Shown: piece after piece, positions 1,221 to 63,985 of the stretch | Layout of the letters: each line of letters opens with the position of its first letter | How positions within the stretch are numbered: position 1 is the stretch's first letter | Source: Octopus vulgaris | Lineage: Eukaryota | Assembly (NCBI GenBank): GCA_951406725.2 | Contig: OX597817.1 | Coordinates: 57,040,001 to 57,104,000 of the forward strand | Reading direction: 5' to 3' | DNA: 64,000 nucleotides | Position numbers and translations under genes: made by a program | The notes under the pieces: generated by a model | The model's input: only the letters and a program-made list of their open reading frames with translations | Told to the model about the DNA's origin: nothing | Databases searched by the model: none

Positions 1221-1610
1221 TGGCGCAGGAGTGGCTGTGTGGTAAGTAGCTTGTTTACCAACCACATGGTTCCGGATTCAGTCCCACTACGTGGCACTTT
1301 GGGCAAGTGTCTTCTACTATAGCCTCGGGCCGACCAAAGCCTTGTGAGTGGATTTGGTAAACGGAAACTGAAAGAAGCCCGTCGTATATATGTATATGCG
1401 TGTGTGTGTTTGTGTGTCTGTGTTTGTCTCCCTAGCATTGCTTGACAACCGATGCTGGTGTGTTTATGTCCCCGTTACTTAGTGGTTCGGCAAAAGAGAC
1501 CGATAGAATAAGTACTGGGCTTACAAAAGAATAAGTCCCGGGGTCGAGTTTCTCGATTAAAGGCGGTGCTCCAGCATGGCCGCAGTCAAATGACTGAAAC
1601 AAGTAAAAGA
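1221..1610 (+). mobile_element. tRNA-derived SINE family A, near full length
   Basis: A-box-like TGGCTGTGTGG, B-box-like GATTCAGTCCC, body GGCAAGTGTCTTCTACTATAGCC...GGAAACTGAAAGAAGCCC, internal (GT)n, tail CCAGCATGGCCGCAGTC...GACTGAAACAAGTAAAAGA; more than ten copies in the window. Confidence 0.9.
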
Positions 1611-2460
1611 GTAATTCTCGTTTTCACACGAGTCAATTATCAGATCGCAGTACTTTCTTTCCAGCACCAGAGCAGCCACCTGCGAAGGCCACTCTGGGCT
1701 GTCAATACAAGTCGGGCCCCTCAGGATCCGACTATCCATATCATTCTCCACGAAACTGTCAATAGCCCCTCCCCTGAGGAAGCAGAACATACATTCTTCA
1801 CCACTTTCACTGGGAGGGGCCTCAACTCCCACGCACGGTGGCACACATCCCACTGACGAGGTTATCTTCTTCCCCCTACCTTCGGTGGCACACATACCAC
1901 CAAAGGGGTTTCGGGACATGCCGTCGCCGGCACTGCCCCCTTTATCTTTTTTCTCTTCTTTTTTTCCTTTTACGATGGGAGGGTGCAGTTCCTCCAACAT
2001 CTCCGGAGGAGCCCCTCCCCCCGCCGTCTCAGGATCCATCGGTGGGCAACCATTGTTGCCCACCTTCTTTCTTTTCTTCCTCTTTGCTTTCGAGGAGGTT
2101 ACCTCCTCCTCGACTTTTTCCTCCGCTGGGAGAGCAGGGGACACCTTTTCAATTAACTGTTCCAGGACTCTTGCTTGGTCCCGGCGACAGTTCTTTATAT
2201 GACCCGATTCCAGGCACAGGTGACACTTGCGGGGACGTCCTTCAACCATCACCGGATACCTGGAACCGGCCATTGTTAAAAACAACCAGATCATCGGCTG
2301 ATTGGGTCCATTGGGTCAAAATTGCTTTTGACCCGACCCAATCAACCGCAGGCAACATTTTTACATTTAAGAGCCTGGCAGGGCCGCCACCCAGGCCCCG
2401 ACAGATAGTGTCTTCTATCCACTCGGCTTCTATACCGTTCAGAGAGAGAGGTGGGGATTA
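1611..2460 (-). mobile_element. Degraded ORF1 (gag-like zinc knuckle) of an L1/Tx1-type LINE
   Basis: Translation has VMVEGRPRK-CHLCLESGHIKNC (shortened CX2CX4HX4C knuckle) followed by a Lys/Glu-rich low-complexity region; the last part of track ORF 1557-2294 reads into the adjacent SINE. Confidence 0.65.
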
Positions 2461-9996: not shown

Positions 9997-10662
9997 CTAC
10001 TCGTTTTTTTTACAAAGTCCACACATTTCCATGGAAACGTCCCACATTTTCTGGGCTAGTCGTTTGTCTTTCGCATAAGGACTCAAATTTTGAGAAATTT
10101 TCATGTTTTCAAAATATTGACCAGACATGTCCTCCAAGTTGGGATCCATAGCCAAATAGGCAACGGTCAGAGCAGCATCTTTAGGTAACATGTTGAATTT
10201 TCTTGATATCAAATCGAAAAAACGGGAGACTATCTTCGCCAGCAACATACCGTTTGTCTTCTGATCTGTTGTTATCTTGGAACCAGACCCACTGTGAACA
10301 CTGATTGTGCTCACTTGATAATCCTTCAGTTTTTCGCTTAAGATTTTAGCGTGCCAAATCTGAGCCAACTTGCTCATGTTGTAACCAAAAAGGTTTGGAT
10401 ATTTTATGTCTGACTCTTGTGTTAGTTGTCGTGAAAAATCTGGTTCTTCTTTGAGGAACGTGTCACCACATGGAATAACGTTGATAACTCGGCTGGGAGA
10501 AGATTTCTTCAGTAGATCGATCAGTAAATAGGTTAACAGAAATGGTCCCACGTAATTAACGCCAAATACATAATCGTACCCTTGTTTGGTTAATTTAAAA
10601 GGACTTAATCCTAATCCAGCGTTGTTGAACAATACATCAATTCGATCTTCCGATGCAGTGAT
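9997..10662 (-). CDS. Retinol dehydrogenase 12/13-like short-chain dehydrogenase/reductase, exon 2 (last coding exon)
   Basis: Acceptor TGTCTTCAG| at 10663 (phase 0); translation ITASEDRIDVLFNNAG...FGVNYVGPFLLTYLLIDLLKKSSPSRVINV...YNMSK...SGQYF...LAQKMWDVS is typical of the RDH11-14/WWOX-like SDR group; stop at 9997-9999. Confidence 0.9.
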   Translation of the reverse strand: MTASEDRIDVLFNNAGLGLSPFKLTKQGYDYVFGVNYVGPFLLTYLLIDLLKKSSPSRVINVIPCGDTFLKEEPDFSRQLTQESDIKYPNLFGYNMSKLAQIWHAKILSEKLKDYQVSTISVHSGSGSKITTDQKTNGMLLAKIVSRFFDLISRKFNMLPKDAALTVAYLAMDPNLEDMSGQYFENMKISQNLSPYAKDKRLAQKMWDVSMEMCGLCKKNE

Positions 10663-10739
10663 CTGAAGACAGAAACAAAACAACAAAGCTAACAACAAAT
10701 TCCGAATACGAAAAACATTTTTTTAAAGAAACTTTCCCA

Positions 10740-18690: not shown

Positions 18691-18724
<34 letters not shown>

Positions 18725-18725
<1 letters not shown>

Positions 18726-18959
18726 CGAAGTAAACACATAAATGTGAAACAAGGTGGAAAAAAGCGTACTCAAATACCAGTGGTAGAGTAATATGCTTTA
18801 TTTAAAACAGCAGAAAATTCAACAAAACCTGTTACTCTGAGTTTCCCGTTGCCGTTCATCGGATAGTTTTTGCTAGATTCTAGCAAAAACTGTCCGATGA
18901 ACGGCAACGGGAAACTCAGAGTAACAGGTTTTGTTGAATTTTCTGCGTTTTTAAATAAA

Positions 18960-18963
<4 letters not shown>
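18725..18963. mobile_element. Fold-back PLE-end insertion with hammerhead-like motif in both arms
   Basis: Near-perfect hairpin (about 18787-18875 vs 18880-18963) inside (TA)n; each arm reads CTGT-CCGATGA-ACG-GCAA-CGG-GAAAC-TCAGA-GTA-ACAG. Confidence 0.75.
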
Positions 18964-19251: not shown

Positions 19252-19668
<417 letters not shown>

Positions 19669-19685
19669 ATTTATTATATAGAAGG

Positions 19686-19736
19686 AGCTTCTACAGGACT
19701 AGTACTGTTTCATTCAAGAGAAATCTTCAGGAAGCT
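19686..19736 (-). ncRNA. Type I hammerhead ribozyme (PLE-associated), left-arm copy
   Basis: Exact reverse complement of 26744-26794. Confidence 0.8.
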
Positions 19737-20112
19737 ATTTAACAAGAATTGTATTAGCATTTATACATTTAGAGGAGTGGTGGTGGGGGACTTTTTGGGG
19801 GTAGGCATAGCGCAAAATATCATACTTGGGGGAGTGGTCAAGGTAATAAAAAAATAAAAAAATAAAAAATAAAAAAATAAAAAGATAAAATAAAAGAATA
19901 AAAATAAAAAATATAAAAAATATAAAAAATATAAAAAATATAAAAAATATATATAAAAAAATATATAAAAAAATATATATATAAAATATATATATAAAAT
20001 ATATATATAAAAAAAGGGGGATAGAGTTATAGGTAAATAAGGAGATTCTCACTTATACCTATACACACATGTATACGTATCTACACACACATACGCACAT
20101 ACACATATATCT

Positions 20113-20157
<45 letters not shown>

Positions 20158-20539
20158 CATACCTACACATACACACATACATACATACAAATATACATAT
20201 ACATATATATATATACAATCCAATACAGGCCCATTCCCTAATTTTAATTTTATTATCTTCATTTATTACTTTTGTTATCTTTGATCGCTAAGGCTAAGAA
20301 TCCTGGCAATAGCTGCTTGTCCATTTGTCTGTCTACTAGAAGGCAAGTACTCATTCCCGCACGCACACTCATTAGCACGTACATTCACCCATTCGTACAC
20401 TCATACACATACACGTACGCACGCGTTATATTCATACATACAAACATCTACATACGTTCACGTATATACACATACGTACTCGTACCTACAGATTCGTGTC
20501 TACACTTTAGGAGGCTAGTCTATACATATACACCAATAA

Positions 20540-20572
<33 letters not shown>

Positions 20573-20624
20573 CCCGCATATACATACACACACACACATA
20601 TATACTCCTACATACAGATACATA

Positions 20625-20664
<40 letters not shown>

Positions 20665-20868
20665 TACATATATATATATACATACATACACATACATACA
20701 CATACACACATACACACACATACATACACATATATATACATACACAAACATATATACACACACATATATATACATACACACATACACACATACATACGTA
20801 TACATACATACATACATCTATACATCCATACTTACATGCATTTATACGCATACACACACCCATCTATA

Positions 20869-20907
<39 letters not shown>

Positions 20908-21186
20908 TCACACATACATATACAAATCTACGCACACACATACATACATACACGTATACGCATACACGCACATACACATATACATGCGTACCCATACACG
21001 TGCACACACGCACGCGCATCCATATAAATACACACACACACATATATATATACACGTGTGCAAGCATACATACATACTCATACGCGCACACATACTTACA
21101 AATACATATATGCACACACTTACACACATATATATACATACACATATACATGCATACATACATATATGCATACATACACACACGCA

Positions 21187-21240
<54 letters not shown>

Positions 21241-21860
21241 TATATACATACATAGACATATATACACATACATACACATACACATACGTACACACACATA
21301 TACACATATATATATATACATATATATATATATACACACATATACGCATACATATATACACATATACATACATATACATACACACACACATACATATATA
21401 CATATACACTGATACACATACCCATACATACACATGCATATACTTATATTACTACATACTCACATATATAGACATATATACATATACACACATACATATA
21501 TACATGTACATACACATACGCATGCATATATATATATATATACATACATATATATACACATATATATATATATATATACATATACACACACACACACACA
21601 TACATATACACATATACATGTATACATACGCAAAAATGATACGCATATATACACATACACACACACAGACAGATGCATATACATACATATATATATATAT
21701 AAACTACATATCTATATAAATACATACATAATACACATATACACACACATATATATACATTCATGCATATACATATACAAGTATACATACACAAACATAC
21801 ACACACACGCGCACACATACATATACACACACACATATACAAATACATACATACACACAT

Positions 21861-21895
<35 letters not shown>

Positions 21896-22589
21896 CATAC
21901 ATGTACACATATACATATGTATATATATATCAACAAGGGGGGTAAAGTTAATTAGTTATTAATCAATTTCATCAAGTGTTCAGTATGTAAAGGGACCATT
22001 ATTATTTTGAGTAAACAATGTTAGAGGGAAAAAAATTCTCTAAGTAGTGGAAGAGGCTAAAAAACTTTATTGGCTGCTATTTCTAGAAAGTTTAGTATGT
22101 GGCAAAGTAATTTATTTTATTTTCCTAAGCCCTAATTATATAATATTTTATACATACATACACATACATAAGCACATACATTTACACATACATATGCATA
22201 TACATATATACACATATACATACAAACACATATACACATATACACACACACACACATACAAGCACATACATATATATATACATATATATACACATATATA
22301 TACACATATATATATATATATATATATACATGCAAACATATATACATATATATTTTTTTACATGCATACATACACACACACACACATAATACATGCGTAT
22401 ATTCCTACTGTACCCATGCATTTCTATACATATATACATACATACATACGATACACATATACAAGCGTGCACATATAATATGCGTGCACATATAATATGT
22501 GAAAGGTCTTAGGAGAAAAGGTAATCGGGGGTGCTAGGGGAACAGTGGGGTTGGGGGGGGTTGTAGGGGGGTTGTAGGGGGGGTTGTCA

Positions 22590-23772
22590 TCAATCAGGTT
22601 GCCGGGTAGGTCTATAGTTCTTGTAGTTCGCATACTTCTTATGCATACAGTTTGGGGAGTGTTCTGAAAATTTGTTAAGGAGAGGGCCTTTGGCGAACAA
22701 GATCTCTAGGCTCTCTGATATGCATAGGTCACAGCAGGTATGTCCTCCTGTGTACGAGCGCGCCTTCTGTAGTAGTTTCCACTTGGTCTTGAAGGGGATT
22801 GAGTTCCTTTTAAGGTACCAGATGTGGGCGGCGAGGGTAGTTTGGTTGGATTTATCCTGTCGCCGGAACGAGTGTGTATGTGCATACCAGCGGGTCTTAA
22901 AGCTGTTTGACGTCATTCCAATGTAGGATTTACTTTTATCGTCAAGGCCTGATCTTACCTCGCATTTATATACTAGGTCCCTCTGTAGGCAGTTGTTGTT
23001 GAGGGGGCAGGTGGTTTTATCATGGCAGTTGCAATTGCTATCGGACGTTGGATGGGCCCCGGAGAAAGTAGATATGTTAAGTTTTTTCACATTGTTGTTG
23101 GCTAAGTTCCTGGCTAGGTTGGGCGTGGTAGAGTAGGAGAGTCTAATAGTGTTCTTATTTAGGATAGTGTAGTACTTATGTTGGGTGGGGAAGTGTTTCT
23201 GTAGGAGAGTGAAAAAGATCTTAGCTACAGGTGTAGCGACCTCACGGTTGAAGGGGGGTTATACCAGCTAATGTGTCTTCGTCTATTTTTCCTGGGTTGG
23301 CGTGGGGCTATACTAGTGTAGGTAATCTTATCTTTAAAACCACTGCGGGCCAGGGCCTCGTTGTAATAGGGGGCTGCGGCCTTAAAGATATCTTCCGTGG
23401 CGGACAGGCTAGAGATTCTAATTGAGACACTTTTTACTAGGTTATCTAATATATTTCTGGGGTGGTTGGAATTGATATCTATATATCTAAGGGATTCATT
23501 TGGTTTGTGGTACGGGTAATAAAGTGAGGTTTTTAAGTCGAGGGTGACATCTAGGAAGTTAGCCTTAGTTAAGTTGGATTCTAGGGTAATCCTAAGGCCT
23601 AAGTTTTTAAAGAAGGTGTGAAGATTTTTCCGGAACCCATCCGTGGTCCTGGGGTTTATATTGTGGAGGGCGAAAAGGCCGTCATCTCGGTAAAGACCAC
23701 CGGAGAGGCCTGTGAATAGGGTTTTCAGCCTATGGAGGATGAAAAGGCCCACTAGGTCACTTATTTCAGCAC
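22590..23772 (-). pseudogene. PLE reverse transcriptase (partial) plus GIY-YIG endonuclease, one frameshift
   Basis: SAEISDLVGLFIL...GLYRDDGL...NFLDVTLDL...YHKPN...SNHP...WYNPP; a 1-nt shift in the G6 run at 23253-23258 restores FNREVATPVAKIFFTLLQKHFP...LSYS...CNCHDKTTCPLNNNC...LVYKCEV...YIGMT...FKTRW...CDLC...CMH. Confidence 0.9.
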
Positions 23773-24554
23773 TTATTACAAATTTTCAGAACACTCCCCA
23801 AACTGTATGCATAAGAAGTATGCGAACTACAAGAACTATAGACCTACCCGGCAACCTGATTGATGACAACCCCCCCTACAACCCCCCCCCCAACCCCACT
23901 GTTCCCCTAGCACCCCGATTACCTTTTCTCCTAAGACCTTTCACATATTATATGTGCACGCATATTATATGTGCACGCTTGTATATGTGTATCGTATGTA
24001 TGTATGTATATATGTATAGAAATGCATGGGTACAGTAGGAATATACGCATGTATTATGTGTGTGTGTGTGTATGTATGCATGTAAAAAAATATATATGTA
24101 TATATGTTTGCATGTATATATATATATATATATATATGTGTATATATATGTGTATATATATGTATATATATATGTATGTGCTTGTATGTGTGTGTGTGTG
24201 TATATGTGTATATGTGTTTGTATGTATATGTGTATATATGTATATGCATATGTATGTGTAAATGTATGTGCTTATGTATGTGTATGTATGTATAAAATAT
24301 TATATAATTAGGGCTTAGGAAAATAAAATAAATTACTTTGCCACATACTAAACTTTCTAGAAATAGCAGCCAATAAAGTTTTTTAGCCTCTTCCACTACT
24401 TAGAGAATTTTTTTCCCTCTAACATTGTTTACTCAAAATAATAATGGTCCCTTTACATACTGAACACTTGATGAAATTGATTAATAACTAATTAACTTTA
24501 CCCCCCCTTGTTGATATATATATACATATGTATATGTGTACATGTATGTATATG

Positions 24555-24587
<33 letters not shown>

Positions 24588-24866
24588 ATGTGTGTATGTA
24601 TGTATTTGTATATGTGTGTGTGTATATGTATGTGTGCGCGTGTGTGTGTATGTTTGTGTATGTATACTTGTATATGTATATGCATGAATGTATATATATG
24701 TGTGTGTATATGTGTATTATGTATGTATTTATATAGATATGTAGTTTATATATATATATATGTATGTATATGCATCTGTCTGTGTGTGTGTATGTGTATA
24801 TATGCGTATCATTTTTGCGTATGTATACATGTATATGTGTATATGTATGTGTGTGTGTGTGTATGT

Positions 24867-24897
<31 letters not shown>

Positions 24898-25117
24898 TAT
24901 ATATATGTATGTATATATATATATATATGCATGCGTATGTGTATGTACATGTATATATGTATGTGTGTATATGTATATATGTCTATATATGTGAGTATGT
25001 AGTAATATAAGTATATGCATGTGTATGTATGGGTATGTGTATCAGTGTATATGTATATATGTATGTGTGTGTGTATGTATATGTATGTATATGTGTATAT
25101 ATGTATGCGTATATGTG

Positions 25118-25148
<31 letters not shown>

Positions 25149-25211
25149 GTGTATATGTGTGTGTACGTATGTGTATGTGTATGTATGTGTATATATGTCT
25201 ATGTATGTATA

Positions 25212-25275
<64 letters not shown>

Positions 25276-25556
25276 TGCGTGTGTGTATGTATGCATATAT
25301 GTATGTATGCATGTATATGTGTATGTATATATATGTGTGTAAGTGTGTGCATATATGTATTTGTAAGTATGTGTGCGCGTATGAGTATGTATGTATGCTT
25401 GCACACGTGTATATATATATATGTGTGTGTGTGTATTTATATGGATGCGCGTGCGTGTGTGCACGTGTATGGGTACGCATGTATATGTGTATGTGCGTGT
25501 ATGCGTATACGTGTATGTATGTATGTGTGTGCGTAGATTTGTATATGTATGTGTGA

Positions 25557-25599
<43 letters not shown>

Positions 25600-25795
25600 T
25601 GGGTGTGTGTATGCGTATAAATGCATGTAAGTATGGATGTATAGATGTATGTATGTATGTATACGTATGTATGTGTGTATGTGTGTATGTATATATATGT
25701 GTGTGTATATATGTTTGTGTATGTATATATATGTGTATGTATGTGTGTGTATGTGTGTATGTGTATGTATGTGTATGTATGTATATATATATGTA

Positions 25796-25835
<40 letters not shown>

Positions 25836-25887
25836 TATGTATCTGTATGTAGGAGTATATATGTGTGTGTGTGTATGTATATGCGGG

Positions 25888-25918
<31 letters not shown>

Positions 25919-26308
25919 GTATATTTATTGGTGTATATGTATAGACTAGCCTCCTAAAGTGTAGACACGAATCTGTAGGTACGAGTACGTATGTGTATAT
26001 ACGTGAACGTATGTAGATGTTTGTATGTATGAATATAACGCGTGCGTACGTGTATGTGTATGAGTGTACGAATGGGTGAATGTACGTGCTAATGAGTGTG
26101 CGTGCGGGAATGAGTACTTGCCTTCTAGTAGACAGACAAATGGACAAGCAGCTATTGCCAGGATTCTTAGCCTTAGCGATCAAAGATAACAAAAGTAATA
26201 AATGAAGATAATAAAATTAAAATTAGGGAATGGGCCTGTATTGGATTGTATATATATATATATGTATATGTATATTTGTATGTATGTATGTGTGTATGTG
26301 TAGGTATG

Positions 26309-26350
<42 letters not shown>

Positions 26351-26743
26351 GTGTGTAGATATATGTGTATGTGCGTATGTGTGTGTAGATACGTATACAT
26401 GTGTGTATAGGTATAAGTGAGAATCTCCTTATTTACCTATAACTCTATCCCCCCTTTTTTTATATATATATTTTATATATATATTTTATATATATATTTT
26501 TTTATATATTTTTTTATATATATTTTTTATATTTTTTATATTTTTTATATTTTTTATATTTTTTATATTTTTTATTTTTATTCTTTTATTTTATCTTTTT
26601 ATTTTTTTATTTTTTATTTTTTTATTTTTTTTATTACCTTGACCACTCCCCCAAGTATGATATTTTGCGCTATGCCTACCCCCAAAAAGTCCCCCACCAC
26701 CACTCCTCTAAATGTATAAATGCTAATACAATTCTTGTTAAAT

Positions 26744-26794
26744 AGCTTCCTGAAGATTTCTCTTGAATGAAACAGTACTAGTCCTGTAGAAGCT
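26744..26794 (+). ncRNA. Type I hammerhead ribozyme (PLE-associated), right-arm copy
   Basis: AGCTTC-CTGAAGA-T-TTC-TCTT-GAA-T-GAA-ACAG-TACTAGTC-CTGT-A-GAAGCT: stem I 6 bp, CUGANGA and GAAA cores, stem II 3 bp, stem III 4 bp with palindromic ACTAGT loop, GUA cleavage triplet. Confidence 0.8.
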
Positions 26795-26875
26795 CCTTCT
26801 ATATAATAAATTAATTTTACTCTGCTATGTATTGAGTACCTTACTTACTGTGGTTAACCCCGAATCAACCCGGGA

Positions 26876-26925
<50 letters not shown>

Positions 26926-26962
26926 CATACCTATATATATATATATATATATACATACATAC

Positions 26963-27038
<76 letters not shown>

Positions 27039-27084
27039 CATACATACCTATATATATATATATATTATATATATACATACATAC

Positions 27085-27117
<33 letters not shown>

Positions 27118-27280
27118 CATACCTATATATATATATATATATACATACATACCTACATATGTATATATACATGCATATATAGGTACAGGACGTCAAAACA
27201 AACGAGACGGACAACATAAAGAACAATCCCTACTCTTGTTTCAGTCATTTGATGACGGCCACGCTGGAGCACCGCCTTAA

Positions 27281-27348
<68 letters not shown>

Positions 27349-27369
27349 ACAGTTATTTTATTCCACACA

Positions 27370-27942
27370 TAGGAAAATAGAAGTTGAAAATTTAGCGTTG
27401 GTGATGAATTTTTTGAGGAACTCTGAATGCCTTTTACTTTTGATTATTTTGTATATTTCAAATGCTTGTTTCATTCTTGGATCTCGTCTTAGCAGTGGAT
27501 AATATTATAAACCTCTATGTTTCTTGGGTTGTGTGTTGTAATAAAGGTAAGATTATTGGATATATTTGGAGCGTTTTTCGTTCTTCCTAGTTTTTTGGTT
27601 ATTTATTGATGTGGCACGTTCTATTACGTTGTCTATTAACATTGATGGATATTGTCTTTTTAGTAGTACTTTTTTTTAGTTCTTGGTGTCTTTTATTGCG
27701 AATTTCATGGTTTGAGACAATTGTGTAGATTCTTCTTGCTAGATTGAATGGAATATTATTCTTCGTGTGTTTGGGATGGCACGAGGAGAAGAGTAAGAAT
27801 TGTTTACAATCTGTTTATTTGTAGTGACATGGGTTTCTGTGATTTTTATCTCCTTTGCTGATTAGTATATCCAGGAATTGTAGTTGAGTTTTGCTGTATT
27901 CCATGGTAAAGTTAATACCATTGTTTATGCTGTTAAGTTTAT

Positions 27943-27945
<3 letters not shown>
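27370..27945 (-). mobile_element. Penelope/Neptune-type PLE RT/thumb remnant
   Basis: KLNSINNGINFTMEYSKTQLQFLDILI...K*TDCKQFLLFSSCHPKHTKNNIPFNLARRICTIVS...LLKRQYP matches the PLE thumb motif (FTxE...FLD...KPTD...SCHP.H...IP); contains stops. Confidence 0.8.
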
Positions 27946-28031
<86 letters not shown>

Positions 28032-28906: not shown

Positions 28907-30720
28907 AGTAACAATTGTTTCGGTACCGTTCTGTTTTTACGCCATTTCACGCAAAAGTTCCAAGTGAAAAATTACTTATTTGCAGTTTTATACATTTGAA
29001 TGGCACTTCGTCAGACTTCGTCAAGAGGTGCCTTTTTTTATTGTGCGGCTGACAAGCGTTGTATGTTCTTTATATGAGGAGAAAACAATAATTATAAAAT
29101 AGGAATGAAAATGGTGAACTAGCAGACAGAGCTTAGATAATTGTAATACCAAATTAGATAGTATTAGAAGAAGAATTCAATAATTATCTTTATCTGAATA
29201 TTACCGCAAATATTAAGTAATTTTTCACATGGGACTTCAGTATGCAATGGCTTTACGAACAGAGTGGTGCTGAAACAATTGCAACTGGTCATTGAAGATG
29301 TGCTAATCTCTTTGAGTTGGCATTATTTAGACACGTGAGCTAGCAGAATCGTTAGCGCGCTGCACGAAATGCTTAGCGGTATTTCGTCTGCCGTTACGTT
29401 CTGGGTTCAAATTCCACCGAGGTCGACTTTACCTTTCATCCTTTCGGGGTCGATAAATTAAGTACCAGTTACGCACTGGGGTCGATATAATCGACTTAAT
29501 TCGTTTGTCTGTCCTTGTTTGTCCTCTCTGTGTTTAGCCCCTTGTGGGTAGTAAAGAAATAGGTATTTCGCCCGTCGCTACGTTCTGAGTTCAAATTCCG
29601 CCGAGGTCGACTTAGCCTTTCATCTTTTCGGGGTCGATAGAATAAGTACCAGTAAAACACTAGGGTCGATGTAATCGATCAGTCTCCTCCCCAAAAATCT
29701 CAGGCCTTGTTCCTATAGTAGAAAAGTTTATTTAGACACGATGATGTATGGCCTTGATCTTTCCAAAACGCTCTCCTTAACAGCGTGGAGTACACCGTTG
29801 TCCTTCTGTGTCCAGATATTGTCTGCCAGCGTTGTGTTATTCTTTTTGTAGGCGTTCATGATAGAAGATTGATGGTTGTAGTATCTTCATTTGAAGCTAC
29901 TTTCGAACCCTTCAGTGAAATTTTTACCTTCAGTCCCCTTATTTGGCGCAACGGAGATAATCTCAGCATCGTAGAAGACTGTGTTCACCATGCATACCTG
30001 TTCAACTGGGCATATATCAGGGCCCCTGCAGCTGGATTCTGAAGTGAGCTTCTTTGTCGGTCTACGTGGAGTAATGTTTTTTTGTTTTATTATTAGAGCC
30101 GCAGCTCTAAGAAACTTTCATGGAACGTCCATTGAAAATCTTCTTGTATTTTTGCCTATAGAAACGTTTATCTATCAGAGCCGGGAATTTTCTACCTACA
30201 TCAGTCACAACATTTAAGTAGAAAGCGGGCCGAACCATATAACTTTTCTACGCCTAGTTTAAGGCTCGGCTCTTATTTAGGCCGGAGTATATGAGTAGGT
30301 CTTATTACAGTAGGGAGTTACTTTATCTAAAATTTCTTTTGAAGAAAATGAGGCTGAAAATTTCATCAGTTAGGTTCCCTCTAAGGTTTTTTTTTTTTTT
30401 TTTTGAAAACGATAGAATGTGACAAGAATGTTTGTATACACAAGATTTTCGTTTGGCTTTTGGTAGGACTTCTAAGTGTATAAATCTAGGTCTAGGGAAC
30501 CATCTCAGAAGTCAGATTTGTCGCTACAATGATTTTCAGATTTTATACGGAGGAGTTTGATGCCTGTGATATTGTGAATTGAATATTTTATTTTCGAACG
30601 AGATTCTGTGAAATTGTAGCGAAAAACTTCCTGTGAAGTTTTAAAACCTGCTTTAAAAGTAAAAATAACAAACAAGGGAAACCACTCTGATGATATCAAA
30701 TAATCCAGATTTTGAAAAAG
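28907..30720 (-). mobile_element. Older degraded Naiad-like PLE (RT thumb, GIY-YIG, 3' hammerhead) interrupted by a SINE
   Basis: Minus-strand CPVEQVCMVNTVFYDAEI...SFK*RYYNHQSS...NNTTLADNIWTQK...VLERSRPY at ~29745-30015; SLDLDLYT*KSYQKPNENLVY at ~30430-30500; hammerhead-like motif at 28907-29017. Confidence 0.75.
29336..29727 (+). mobile_element. SINE family B (two tandem units) with 13-bp TSD
   Basis: TTATTTAGACACG at 29323-29335 and 29728-29740 flanks two Nin-type cores. Confidence 0.88.
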
Positions 30721-31021: not shown

Positions 31022-31240
31022 TAACATAAATGTGAAACAAGGTGGAAAAAAGAGTACTCAAATACCAGTGGTAGAGTAATATGCTTTATTTTAAGCAGCA
31101 GAAAATTCAACAAAATCTGTTACTCTGAGTTTCTCGTTGCCGTTCATCAGACAGTTTTTGCTAGAAAAACTGTCTGATGAACGGCAACGAGAAACTGAGA
31201 GTAACAGATTTTGTTGAACTTTCTGCTGCTTAAAATAAAG

Positions 31241-49256: not shown

Positions 49257-51899
49257 TTAGTTATTTTGGGAGGATTTAAATTCGCAAATAAACGAATGTT
49301 CCACGCTTTTCTTCGAATTCCAACAATACTTATCCAACCATTTAAACCCCCAAGCTTTTTTAATTTGATTACATCGTGTTTTTCTGAGAGTGTCAGGTCG
49401 GCCGGGGAAGTAATTGGTATAAACAACAGGTTCGTTTGTACTTGCCCATTTCCACTTGCCATCATTATCCAGAAAGGTCGGTGATAACCATACAGTATTA
49501 GGGGTCCCTATAGTAACCATAAAGTTCTCCAACATGAGTTCCTTTTGAAGATCTTTAACCGTGACTAAATTAGCTCCAAGACGCTTGCAGGTCTCTATGG
49601 CTCTTTTGTTCGACTGTTTCACAGGAATGTATTTAAAACAATAACCGCCAATTTCTTTAGCAAATGCGGGGCACAACTGGCTGTGTACTGAAGCGTTTTT
49701 CCAGTGTGAAGGCAGGGTATTTTCACTCATAGCATTGCTAGGGTTCTCGTTGACCATCTTTATTTGTATTGTCACATTAACTGGATTTCTGTTGTCGTGT
49801 GTGGATAATGGAAGTTCACATATGGTCCCATAACGATTATCAGAATCGCAGGAAACTAGTGACAATTTAAAATTATTGCTGGGATCCAAAACTAAACAAT
49901 TTTCGTCGTATTTTCGCGACAAGTCCTTTGAATTGAACGGCATAATCATATGTGCTTTAAATTCTTTCGGGTTCAACGAAGCAATGCTGTCTTTTGACAG
50001 CCAGAGCGGGATATTGAGATCAGAGTATATTGCCAAAAATATTTTCATATCAGTCCACTCTTCTAATGAAAACAGGGTAGCAACTCGTGAGTCAATATTT
50101 TGACAATCCGATACCGCTCCTTTCCAAGAAACACGCCTCGGCATGAAATGTAAACAGCGACGAACAGATTTAAACCAATTCTCTGGGCAAAATTTCACAG
50201 GTTTGACATTTGGTTTGGCAGTAGCAGAAAATGAAGGTTTCAAGAAAGCATGATAATTACTGGAAGAGGCCGCTTCCTTTTGGGCTCCTTCAATGTTAAA
50301 AGTAACTTGTGATGGTTTAACCATATCCATTCGGGCGATGGGGTGAGGAATCTTCCCGTTTTTTCTTTTGCTTTGCAATTCAATAAAATTGGGGCTAGAA
50401 TGGGTCATGTTCATGTGAAAACTGCTCGAAGGTTTTGCTGTACTTGAATGCACATTGCCCTTGCCACCTAGTATATTACTTCTAAATAGGTTCTGCGCTC
50501 TTTTAATTTCCGACTTAAATCTTTCTTCCTCGCTGCAGCTGGTACAATTTATACGTACTGCCTTTAAGTCAGTTACTTTGTCTTTAAGTCGAGCAATTTG
50601 ATTTTCATGAGAATTTCGACTATCTTCGACACTTTTGAGTCTTAATTTAATTTTCTCTTGCTCTGTTTCTAGGCTTTTCACTTTGGAATGAGTATTAAGG
50701 TCCTTTAATGCATCGAGTTCCTTCTTAAAAGATTTAAGAGTCGATCGAAGATCTCCAATTTCTCTCACGGAATCTTTGTAAGCTTCAGACAGTGATACCA
50801 TTTTATCTGAACATGTTTTGAACTTTAAACTTTGTTGCGTTAAAATATTTCCAAACTCTCGTTGTCCGTTCTTCACCTCGCTAAGACCCTGACGGGAATA
50901 ATTTAGTCTGTTCTCAATGGTTTTCAATCTTAAACCTATGTTAGACACATGGGATTCATTTTGTGGACGGAAATGGTTCTTACCTGGTGTCATTACATCA
51001 GAGAAATTGCTGTTCATTTCAGTAATCGCGGATTTAACTTCTTCCATTTCTTCCTTCAGTTCATCCACAGTTACAACAAGGCCTTGCATTTCTGGGTTGT
51101 TGTCCGTTGGCGTCCATGAGGTTACCGTATTCCCCTCACCTTTTGGTTCCTGTTCGCGTACGTCACCTTTACAAGATTGTTTGCATGCTTCTTTTTTATT
51201 AAGGACCAACGTTCTTAAATTCTCTGCTGATTTCTTTAAATTCTTCACCTGAACAGACAAAGATGTTAGTTCGCTTGATGAATCTTTTACTTCCAGGGAG
51301 ATAATGTCAAACAGGTTCTTCATGCCAGCCAGCTGCCTCAGAAACTGGTGTATTTGGGCCTTCACCGTAGCAAAGTCCGCCTTTCCTTGATTTTCTTTAA
51401 ATTCCAATTCTTTCACTTTACGGTCAAGAGCAGCGACGGTAAGTTCTTGACGCATAACTGTTTCTTTAAATTGTTTCCCTGTCATCATAAGAGACTTCGA
51501 TTCTTTGTTAGCTTTCATTTTCAGCTCTGCAATGCTATCACTTATTTCATCTAAATAAGAATATTTTTCGTACAGTTTATCGATCGAATCCCTTAAGTTC
51601 GATATTTCCTTAAACAATGCTCTTTCTATAGACTTGCTGGTGTATTTCTTGATCACTTCCATGTCATCACCGGATATTAAACAAATGCCATTATTGTCAA
51701 CGTATTTATAATATTTACACTCAAACTCTGACTCCGAACGACAAGCTTCGGAACATGCCCTTCGGGTAAGACCAAATTTCTTTTTAAGTTTCGGATCAGC
51801 TTGGATCGAAGAAGTCAAGTAAGGAAATACGATATGTACAAAAACAGATTCATAAATGAGGCAGAGAAGCAAAACCCTCTGACTGTGAGAGAAATACAT
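49257..51899 (-). CDS. Secreted PAN/Apple + coiled-coil + two C-type-lectin-domain protein, 880 aa
   Basis: Uninterrupted 2.6-kb ORF; hydrophobic N-terminus; PAN-like ACSEAC...ECKYYKY...CLIS; long heptad region; two CTLDs (FCPENW...C...W..A...C...LWL...C...C...ICE and LCPAF...C...C...VWL...WKW...YTNY.PG.PD...C...WLD..C...FICE); AATAAA about 140 nt after the stop. Confidence 0.9.
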   Translation of the reverse strand: MYFSHSQRVLLLCLIYESVFVHIVFPYLTSSIQADPKLKKKFGLTRRACSEACRSESEFECKYYKYVDNNGICLISGDDMEVIKKYTSKSIERALFKEISNLRDSIDKLYEKYSYLDEISDSIAELKMKANKESKSLMMTGKQFKETVMRQELTVAALDRKVKELEFKENQGKADFATVKAQIHQFLRQLAGMKNLFDIISLEVKDSSSELTSLSVQVKNLKKSAENLRTLVLNKKEACKQSCKGDVREQEPKGEGNTVTSWTPTDNNPEMQGLVVTVDELKEEMEEVKSAITEMNSNFSDVMTPGKNHFRPQNESHVSNIGLRLKTIENRLNYSRQGLSEVKNGQREFGNILTQQSLKFKTCSDKMVSLSEAYKDSVREIGDLRSTLKSFKKELDALKDLNTHSKVKSLETEQEKIKLRLKSVEDSRNSHENQIARLKDKVTDLKAVRINCTSCSEEERFKSEIKRAQNLFRSNILGGKGNVHSSTAKPSSSFHMNMTHSSPNFIELQSKRKNGKIPHPIARMDMVKPSQVTFNIEGAQKEAASSSNYHAFLKPSFSATAKPNVKPVKFCPENWFKSVRRCLHFMPRRVSWKGAVSDCQNIDSRVATLFSLEEWTDMKIFLAIYSDLNIPLWLSKDSIASLNPKEFKAHMIMPFNSKDLSRKYDENCLVLDPSNNFKLSLVSCDSDNRYGTICELPLSTHDNRNPVNVTIQIKMVNENPSNAMSENTLPSHWKNASVHSQLCPAFAKEIGGYCFKYIPVKQSNKRAIETCKRLGANLVTVKDLQKELMLENFMVTIGTPNTVWLSPTFLDNDGKWKWASTNEPVVYTNYFPGRPDTLRKTRCNQIKKAWGFKWLDKYCWNSKKSVEHSFICEFKSSQNN

Positions 51900-52059
51900 A
51901 CGTTACAGAATGTATATCGATTACCACAATATTGTAAAGGCATTCACTTAGTTAAATCGTTGCCAGAGGAGAAATTTAAACTTGACACACAAAACGCTAC
52001 TTGCTGTGACGTCATCTCAATCTAAACACTTCCATCTGTTTGTTTATTTTCATTAATAG

Positions 52060-62888: not shown

Positions 62889-63379
62889 AGAGTAAACATA
62901 CTACTATCATGTTCTTAAGAATGAAATCAACCTCTCTGTCTGTACATCTACCCTCTTTATAATGTTGGAAAATGAAATAAGGGTAAGAATGTGCATTGTC
63001 CGTTTAATTGGAAAATTCTGTAAGTGGCTGAAGATTGCTTGACATTTTAAAACTGATGTAATACTTACAGTGTTTAATAAAATGAAGTAGCATGAAACAA
63101 TTGTACTACTCTACCTCGGATATACTTGTTGCTTATTTTGATTATAATCACCCCATTTGATTTATATGGATAACAACATACCAAATTCTGGTGCCTTTAA
63201 CTTAAGTACCATATTCATCTGAATCTAAATGTTGCTATATATATATATATAAATATATATATAAGCATATTAAAAGTGGGTCCGTGGGAAAACTCATTTA
63301 AACACGAAGTCCTTAGTAATGAAAAGACTGGGAAATTGTCAAGAAGGCTGAGGGTGTCTTGGCTCACTCACCAAATCCT

Positions 63380-63985
63380 TTGTGAGCCGCTCTCCGGCTA
63401 TCTATCTGCGGCTTTATATAGCTATGGTAAGACCTCACCTGGAATTTGCATCACCGGTCTGGAACCCCTATCTTGCCCAGGATATCAATCGTCTGGAAGC
63501 TGTTCAGCGACGTGCAACCAAAAGTATACCCTCCATCAGGCATTTGCCATATCCTGAACGCCTTACTTCCCTGGGCATGGACACATTGAAACTCCGACGT
63601 CTGGCAGCTGACTTGGCAGACACCCATAAAATTATCAACCATCGTACAAACAATAACTCTGAGCACCTTTTCAAACTCCACCCATCTAACACCTGTGGAC
63701 ATATTTACAAAGTAAGAAAACAGCACAGATCCCATGACTTCAGGAAACATTTTTTCAAGCTGAGAGTTGCTGAAGCATGGAACAAACTGCCGGCATCAGT
63801 TGTTAGTTGTCGGAGCACTGCATCCTTCAAAACTTCCATGCTTCCTGAGATTCGCCAACACTACACTTGATTTTCTCCCCTCCATACACACACAAGCATG
63901 TATCTGTGTCATACATTGTTCGCTTTCCAGACATTTCTACATTACTGCATGTACTTTATATGCACTTTATATGTACCAGTTGATT
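63380..63985 (+). mobile_element. CR1-clade LINE 3' end
   Basis: LYIAMVRPHLEFASPVWNPY...LEAVQRRATK...Y.ERL..LG...L..RR...RKHFF..RV...WNKLP...FK followed by a short 3' UTR and (ATT)n. Confidence 0.9.

What the first reader, a model, noticed from the sequence alone, without database searches (positions are those of the whole stretch)
19669..26880. 7.1-kb palindrome: young Naiad-like PLE with 3-kb inverted arms carrying microsatellite cargo
Seen: arms 19669-22675 and 23778-26811 are near-identical reverse complements differing mainly in repeat counts. The 1.1-kb spacer and the inner end of the left arm encode RT (YRDD) and GIY-YIG with a CxCx5Cx5C linker. About 2.85 kb of (TG/TA)-rich sequence separates the stop codon from the terminal hammerhead, and the host (TA)n/CATACATACC repeat continues in direct orientation on both sides. 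Known: PLE insertions often carry an inverted 5' copy of the 3' end, usually a few hundred bp. Inference: an unusually long pseudo-LTR, either intrinsic or 3'-transduced up to the next hammerhead, making this PLE a vehicle that duplicates kilobases of microsatellite and a possible long dsRNA source.
Basis: partly seen in the sequence, partly recalled or inferred. Interest (0 to 1): 0.75.

Follow-up and report, generated by a model that had tools for sequence, protein, structure and literature searches.

The report
Microsatellite-laden Hydra Penelope, two-ended insertions
This 7-kb palindrome is one recent insertion of a Penelope-type jumping gene whose every long copy carries about 3 kb of simple-repeat DNA; its mirror-image layout, with one long and one short end, is the family's normal footprint and was likely made by copying one source RNA from both sides of a cut.

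Summary
The palindrome is real: arms 19669-22679 and 23778-26811 differ by 3 substitutions and 16 small gaps. It is not Naiad-like: RT precedes the endonuclease, and the Hydra-clade motifs, a hammerhead and (TA)n targeting are present. The microsatellite 'cargo' is intrinsic: 70 of 80 other ORF-bearing loci carry the terminal hammerhead island, median 3.2 kb after the stop, so the unit is 5.1-5.7 kb, about twice described Hydra elements (at most 3.0 kb). Inversion is routine: 14 of 80 loci have inverted arms reaching the ORF. Two-ended insertions have one long (tail) and one short end: 43 of 48, 33 of 33, and 13 of 13 in a second family. Both arms share their source haplotype (37 of 42), and here neither arm contains the other, which excludes simple fold-back copying. 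Best reading: two-sided priming on same-source RNA, then end joining (inferred). The frameshift is probably a homopolymer read error. This locus's junction is not read-confirmed; dsRNA and editing are unshown; the genome-wide microsatellite contribution is small. Inverted copies and tails are published; this scan noted the two-fixed-end pattern earlier on other DNA of this genome.

The parts
19252..19668 (.). left target flank, (TA)n with CATACATACC units
19669..23771 (-). ORF-bearing arm, 5'-truncated inside RT, ending at the family's short 3' end (about 23 nt past the predicted hammerhead cleavage site)
19686..19736 (-). type I hammerhead, left arm
   Evidence: mirror
19737..22589 (-). intrinsic microsatellite-rich 3' UTR, left arm
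22590..23258 (-). C-terminal part of the ORF: CxCx5C linker, GIY-YIG endonuclease, CxxC and CxH motifs
23253..23258 (-). C6 run giving an apparent frameshift; likely homopolymer under-call
23253..23771 (-). RT motifs 5-7 and thumb (residues 320-493 of the 713-aa family protein)
23772..23777 (.). 6-nt insert at the head-to-head junction, the same six letters as 23760-23765 (possibly templated)
   Evidence: sequence
23778..26811 (+). inverted arm: last 27 codons of the ORF, whole 3' UTR (73% tandem repeat) and hammerhead
26744..26794 (+). type I hammerhead in Hydra format; predicted cleavage after 26788
26812..26882 (+). about 70-nt tail = start of the next unit's 5' UTR, ending after a stem-loop with an AC-rich loop; the family's long 3' end
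26881..27181 (.). right target flank, same compound microsatellite in direct orientation

Best explanation
This is a recent insertion of a Hydra-clade Penelope-like retrotransposon with an intrinsic 3-kb microsatellite 3' UTR, and its palindrome was likely made when both ends of a cut in a (TA)n tract primed reverse transcription of RNA from one source element. Shown: the unit (hammerhead, tail, 713-aa RT-EN ORF, about 3.2-kb UTR, hammerhead); the head-to-head layout; one long and one short outer end about 70 nt apart; same-haplotype arms; locus-specific junctions. Inferred: the endonuclease cuts both strands; one 3'-OH primes at the short start and the other at the long start, each at TA-like microhomology just 3' of a hairpin; the two cDNAs stop at different points and are joined by microhomology or short-insert end joining. 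Because priming is at the hammerhead end, everything between stop codon and hammerhead is copied first and twice, so the UTR is obligatory cargo. Whether one RNA molecule or two RNAs of one locus are used is open (about 60:40).
For: Intrinsic UTR: 70 of 80 ORF-selected loci carry the hammerhead island downstream, and each of the islands I3-I5 also in 70 of 80; stop-to-hammerhead 2055-3565 nt, median 3176, n=71 including the window; 63-81% tandem repeat in 7 of 7 UTRs tested across subfamilies versus 6-7% in the rest of the window. Long+short rule: 43 of 48 loci with both outer ends scorable, 33 of 33 diverging pairs on C1 (3 of them overlap the first set), 13 of 13 scorable in a second Hydra family at 44% protein identity. 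The ORF-bearing arm has the short end in 23 and the long end in 20; where it has the short end, as in the window, neither arm contains the other. Arms identical at 69 variable columns in 37 of 42 insertions, permutation mean 11.7, maximum 20 of 10,000; within one subfamily the own arm is closest in 11 of 17, p<1/20,000; 25 substitutions private to a locus are shared by both arms. No two mapped junction pairs are the same; roughly 30 of 51 have 0-7 nt overlap and 21 have 1-34 nt inserts. 214 of 218 ends abut (TA)5+. In vitro, a Poseidon PLE cleaves and extends both strands and starts at two internal sites that bound the tail (PMC11167929).
Against: No read or contig listed spans this locus's own junction (no joints; contigs at 23771 continue into the full ORF). 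5 of 48 loci break the rule (4 short+short, 1 long+long in a compound locus). Haplotype concordance can also come from one source being active at a time or from later gene conversion between arms, so it does not prove one RNA molecule; 36 private substitutions lie on one arm only, and one mini element (L144) has different loop alleles on its arms. Several junctions are near-perfect fold-backs (L051, L057, L061, L063, L094), as the self-priming model predicts. Junction mapping inside microsatellite is ambiguous. No phylogeny with named references was built.
Confidence: 0.72

Rival explanations
1. Self-priming or fold-back: one cDNA folds back, or switches to an antisense transcript, and makes the second arm (model in PMC3846280).
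For: Explains shared private variants and the near-perfect fold-back junctions, including the mini palindromes centred at the 5' edge of hammerhead stem I.
Against: In 23 of 43 long+short loci, and in the window, each arm has sequence the other lacks, so neither can be a copy of the other; an antisense-template switch remains possible but does not explain the even split of which arm is longer.
Confidence: 0.15
2. Locus-specific 3' transduction of host microsatellite DNA up to the next hammerhead, as with the Pen1_Av spacers.
For: Precedent in PMC3846280 (0.9-1.5 kb spacers unique per copy); the UTR looks like repeat-rich host DNA and may have been captured long ago.
Against: The same islands in the same order follow the ORF in 70 of 80 loci, and the UTR is alignable (79% over 2.3 kb) with a copy whose EN is 7% diverged.
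Confidence: 0.03
3. Fold-back sequencing or assembly artefact.
For: Arms are almost identical; the assembly shows homopolymer errors; the junction is not bridged in the four short-read runs laid.
Against: Flanks are direct, not mirrored; the ends are asymmetric in a fixed way at many loci; a 1.1-kb unique spacer; an independent short-read contig joins antisense ORF at 23651 to sense UTR island sequence, an inversion junction of the same kind from another copy.
Confidence: 0.04
4. The palindrome was inherited whole from a palindromic source transcript.
For: Would give identical arms; may hold for part of the minis, whose junction position recurs.
Against: Long insertions all have different junction pairs.
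Confidence: 0.06

Closest known systems
Hydra clade of C-terminal EN+ PLEs, incl. Hydra-1_Obim (Craig et al. 2021, PMC8557442)
   Same: RT then EN in one ORF, DKT, RW(K/R), CxCx5C linker, CxxC and CxH, canonical hammerhead with the same layout, (TA)n target, partial tandems and inverted copies
   Different: Listed families are 1.1-3.0 kb (27 rows); this unit is 5.1-5.7 kb with a 3.2-kb microsatellite UTR; hammerhead sequence differs from Hydra-1_oBim; tail about 70 nt rather than 30-40
Poseidon PAc of Anolis, in vitro (Frangieh et al. 2024, PMC11167929)
   Same: Two RT start sites that bound the tail, both strands extended, AT-rich targets, start near an AC-rich stem-loop
   Different: Other clade; in the half of the text read, it does not report one long and one short end per insertion or same-source arms
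Adineta vaga Pen1-Pen3 (Arkhipova et al. 2013, PMC3846280)
   Same: Inverted pLTRs, tail on one of them, palindromic junctions, spacer between ORF and 3' pLTR
   Different: Spacers are 0.9-1.5 kb and differ between copies; very low copy number; explained there by antisense self-priming
Microsatellite-carrying retroelements: shrimp Penelope (PMC7878876), snake1 CR1 (PMC3157835)
   Same: Simple repeats move with the element
   Different: There short or terminal SSRs, or SSR content not resolved by family structure; here about 2 kb of compound SSR sits inside the obligatory 3' region and is often copied twice per insertion
Naiad clade (PMC8557442)
   Same: (TA)n preference, inverted and tandem layouts
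   Different: Naiads have N-terminal EN, DKA, CCHH and no canonical hammerhead

Membership tests
Naiad | N-terminal GIY-YIG EN before RT | tested here: not met
   EN is C-terminal in the natural intact 713-aa ORF of L088
Naiad | DKA motif; no canonical hammerhead | tested here: not met
   SDKT; hammerhead present
Hydra | single ORF, C-terminal EN | tested here: met
   unit map
Hydra | RWK motif and DKG changed to DKT | tested here: met
   RWR (RWK in 6 of the 9 aligned relatives) and DKT
Hydra | CxCX5C linker; CxxC and CxH near the EN end; no CCHH | tested here: met
   CNCHDKTTC, CDLC, CMH; CCHH judged absent by eye
Hydra | canonical hammerhead | tested here: met
   fold matches the layout of the Hydra table; cleavage not assayed
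Hydra | insertion into (TA)n | tested here: met
   214 of 218 ends
Hydra | generally short (<3 kb); a described tendency, not a diagnostic | tested here: not met
   unit 5104-5743 nt in 5 natural copies
Hydra | RT phylogeny with Hydra references | not testable with these tools
   no named reference proteins were returned (118 of the 120 listed hits unnamed, 2 'hypothetical protein')
Neptune / Poseidon | CCHH in EN; CX2-5CxxC linker (Neptune) or no linker (Poseidon) | tested here: not met
   linker is CxCx5C
Non-LTR retrozyme | short non-coding tandem units each with a hammerhead | tested here: not met
   unit is coding and over 5 kb

The most novel reading that the evidence does not exclude
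A PLE protein dimer loads one RNA molecule at two fixed start sites and primes both ends of the cut at once, so every insertion is a two-armed palindrome; with a 3-kb microsatellite UTR this family keeps planting multi-kilobase near-perfect inverted repeats, a renewable source of long dsRNA for editing or silencing and of duplicated microsatellite, in an animal known for heavy RNA editing (host identity inferred).
Probability: 0.3. Interest if true: 0.7.

Novelty: new variant of a known kind. Interest (0 to 1): 0.45.

Why it matters
How PLEs form their inverted structures and tails is stated as open in PMC8557442 and only partly answered in vitro (PMC11167929). This family gives thousands of ends (1998 + 5793 exact hammerhead-end matches) with a near-strict one-long-one-short rule and a fast-changing UTR that works as a barcode for the template, so single-RNA, two-RNA and fold-back models can be told apart. 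It also doubles the known size of Hydra elements, and automatic annotation would likely split such a unit into ORF plus simple repeats. It is not a major source of the genome's microsatellites.

Tried and rejected
Pfam and NCBIfam gave no significant hit for the ORF. Rfam at E<=5 gave microsatellite-driven miRNA noise and no hammerhead in the 150 rows shown. Programmed frameshift between RT and EN: considered because 56 of 68 pure C runs are read as six; rejected because all 6 runs broken by one substitution have the in-frame length, short-read contigs of all four runs show the extra base (16.9/16.9, 50.8/50.8, 3998/8076, 3200/28717), and EN shows more synonymous than replacement changes (e.g. 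31:13). Editing: no A>G excess among private variants (2 of 25 shared, 1 of 36 one-arm), and the A>G differences in RNA-guessed runs also stand in DNA runs; contigs cannot show editing. Expression: no RNA holder listed (RNA status only guessed). An idea that inner and outer hammerheads of tandem loci differ was dropped: the difference was in indels, not diagnostic bases. One search returned 0 because the pattern was mistyped; one search counted only the window's own subfamily (38 matches). 13 loci were left out of the arm tests as overlapping, duplicate or compound, 10 out of the junction test. The search of earlier findings by sequence and near place returned nothing. My note gave 14/14 for family B; one locus is cut by the region edge, so the count is 13 of 13.
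Full report
Observation. The arms align over about 3.0 kb with 3 substitutions and 16 gaps, nearly all in repeat counts. The left arm continues for 1.1 kb into an RT fragment; the right arm continues for about 70 nt before the flank. The compound microsatellite on both sides is in direct orientation (6 and 6 units, 0 reversed), as expected for an insertion into one array; a target-site duplication cannot be read in (TA)n. The genome is 2.8 Gb in 227 contigs; I infer an octopus-like host from size and repeat content, without identifying the record.

What it is. The EN part has 150 scored matches at 94-100% identity in the genome (a lower bound). A natural uninterrupted copy gives a 713-aa ORF with RT first and EN last. 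Section 11 of PMC8557442 (read whole) defines Hydra by C-terminal EN, RWK, DKT, CxCX5C, CxxC/CxH, no CCHH, canonical hammerhead and (TA)n targeting; all are met (RWR for RWK), whereas the Naiad features (passages) are not. The hammerhead folds as a three-way junction in the layout of the paper's Hydra table (supplement part 2 of 59) but differs in sequence from Hydra-1_oBim. Relatives at about 40% identity are many and unnamed, so no reference tree was built. The one-base offset between RT and EN is most likely a homopolymer under-call.

The cargo. I fetched 80 of the 150 ORF hits as 10-kb stretches (60 of the best and 20 picked from the more diverged). 70 of 80 have the hammerhead island downstream, with the unique islands in the same order; three pairs of these loci overlap in tandem arrays. 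Stop to hammerhead is 2.1-3.6 kb, median 3.2. Full units in five natural copies are 5104-5743 nt, against 1080-3045 nt for the 27 listed Hydra families. The UTR is 63-81% tandem repeat in all seven copies tested, tenfold the local background, and it changes faster than the ORF: 79% over the aligned part where EN is 93% identical. A second Hydra family in this genome (44% identical) has a 1.0-kb UTR, 22% repeat. So the cargo is part of the element; how it first arose (old capture, slippage, self-insertion into its own TA tracts as in L085) is not shown.

The palindrome. Exact hammerhead-end motifs occur 1998 times and 5793 times for the older allele, the EN motif 168 times. Of the first 100 hits on C1, 68 form diverging pairs. 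14 of 80 ORF loci have an inverted arm reaching the ORF and 19 reach island I2, so the window's copy is ordinary for its family. Outer ends fall in two classes about 70 nt apart, both at TA-like microhomology just past a hairpin. One of each per insertion is found in 43 of 48, 33 of 33 (three shared with the first set) and 13 of 13 in the second family (7 of 20 loci not scorable). Either arm may be the longer (23 versus 20). Arms share haplotype far beyond chance and share private variants. Junctions are locus-specific, with short overlaps or inserts (rough). 25 of the 60 C1 loci fetched are minis of about 200-300 bp whose arms stop near the 5' edge of stem I with varied junctions; the junction pattern has 1027 strand matches genome-wide.

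Mechanism. PMC11167929 (parts 1-2 of 4) shows a PLE protein cleaving and extending both strands, starting at two internal sites that bound the tail, with a predicted dimer. My reading joins this to the genomic rule: each cut end primes at one of the two sites on RNA of one source, and the truncated cDNAs are end-joined head to head. The main rival is self-priming (PMC3846280, parts 1-4 of 5); it fits the fold-back junctions but not the loci where each arm holds sequence the other lacks. The data do not separate one RNA molecule from two RNAs of one locus, and gene conversion could add to arm identity.

Limits. No evidence for or against transcription or editing of the hairpin was obtained. The 33 pairs total 71.6 kb in the first 112 Mb of C1; adding the unpaired loci by eye gives about 0.1% of the genome for the young subfamilies, small beside a 6-7% local repeat background.

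Prior knowledge. Inverted truncated copies with a tail at one end are described (PMC8557442 Fig. 2 legend; PMC3846280); opposed hammerheads 100-700 bp apart were noted in Schistosoma (PMC4209133, passages); SSRs moving with Penelope in shrimp (PMC7878876, passages) and CR1 in snakes (PMC3157835, passages). PMC13282606 (part 1 of 3 and passages) counts recently active Penelope families in an octopus without structures; its supplements were not opened. 10.64898/2026.07.22.740005 (part 1 of 5) and PMC7229834 (passages) added nothing specific. Searches (listings, apart from the papers named) showed no report of a Hydra element with a multi-kilobase microsatellite UTR or a counted long/short rule; the library lacks most subscription papers. 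Earlier AI notes of this scan report two fixed ends for retrozyme-like repeats and Hydra ends elsewhere in this genome; my classification and counts preceded that look-up, and the notes are not independent support.

Verdict. Real feature; new variant of a known kind; interest 0.45.

Noticed in passing
window 18724-18961: Mini palindrome of the second Hydra family: hammerhead on both strands (18862, 18894), long end left, short end right.
   Followed up: partly
window about 31100-31230: Another opposed hammerhead pair of the second family (31150, 31174), next to a 1.1-kb TA-rich array.
   Followed up: no
window 29746-30552 (-): Older Hydra-like ORF remnant, 27-47% identical to the two families (tblastn).
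   Followed up: no
window 27340-27960 (-): Degenerate AT-rich reading frame that resembles a PLE RT thumb by eye; no tblastn hit to either family.
   Followed up: no
L171-L190 (G000): Second young Hydra family: 727-aa open frame in most copies, unit about 3.36 kb, tail about 70 nt, long+short in 13 of 13.
   Followed up: partly
L112-L170 minis (G000:C1): Recurrent stop of both arms at the 5' edge of hammerhead stem I with varied, often locally templated junction inserts; unexplained (RT stall plus a 4-nt palindrome, or minis that propagate themselves).
   Followed up: partly
L085 / L134: A mini element inserted into a TA tract of the family's own 3' UTR.
   Followed up: no
L144: Mini whose two arms carry different hammerhead loop alleles; point mutation or two templates.
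   Followed up: partly
window 49257-51902 (-) and 9997-10722 (-): 881-aa open frame with C-type lectin and PAN-like domains, and a short-chain dehydrogenase frame; whether the palindrome lies in an intron was not determined.
   Followed up: no
window 1557-2315 (-) and 63352-63870 (+): LINE-like fragments by eye (zinc-knuckle ORF1-like; CR1-like C-terminus), no Pfam hit; labels recalled.
   Followed up: no
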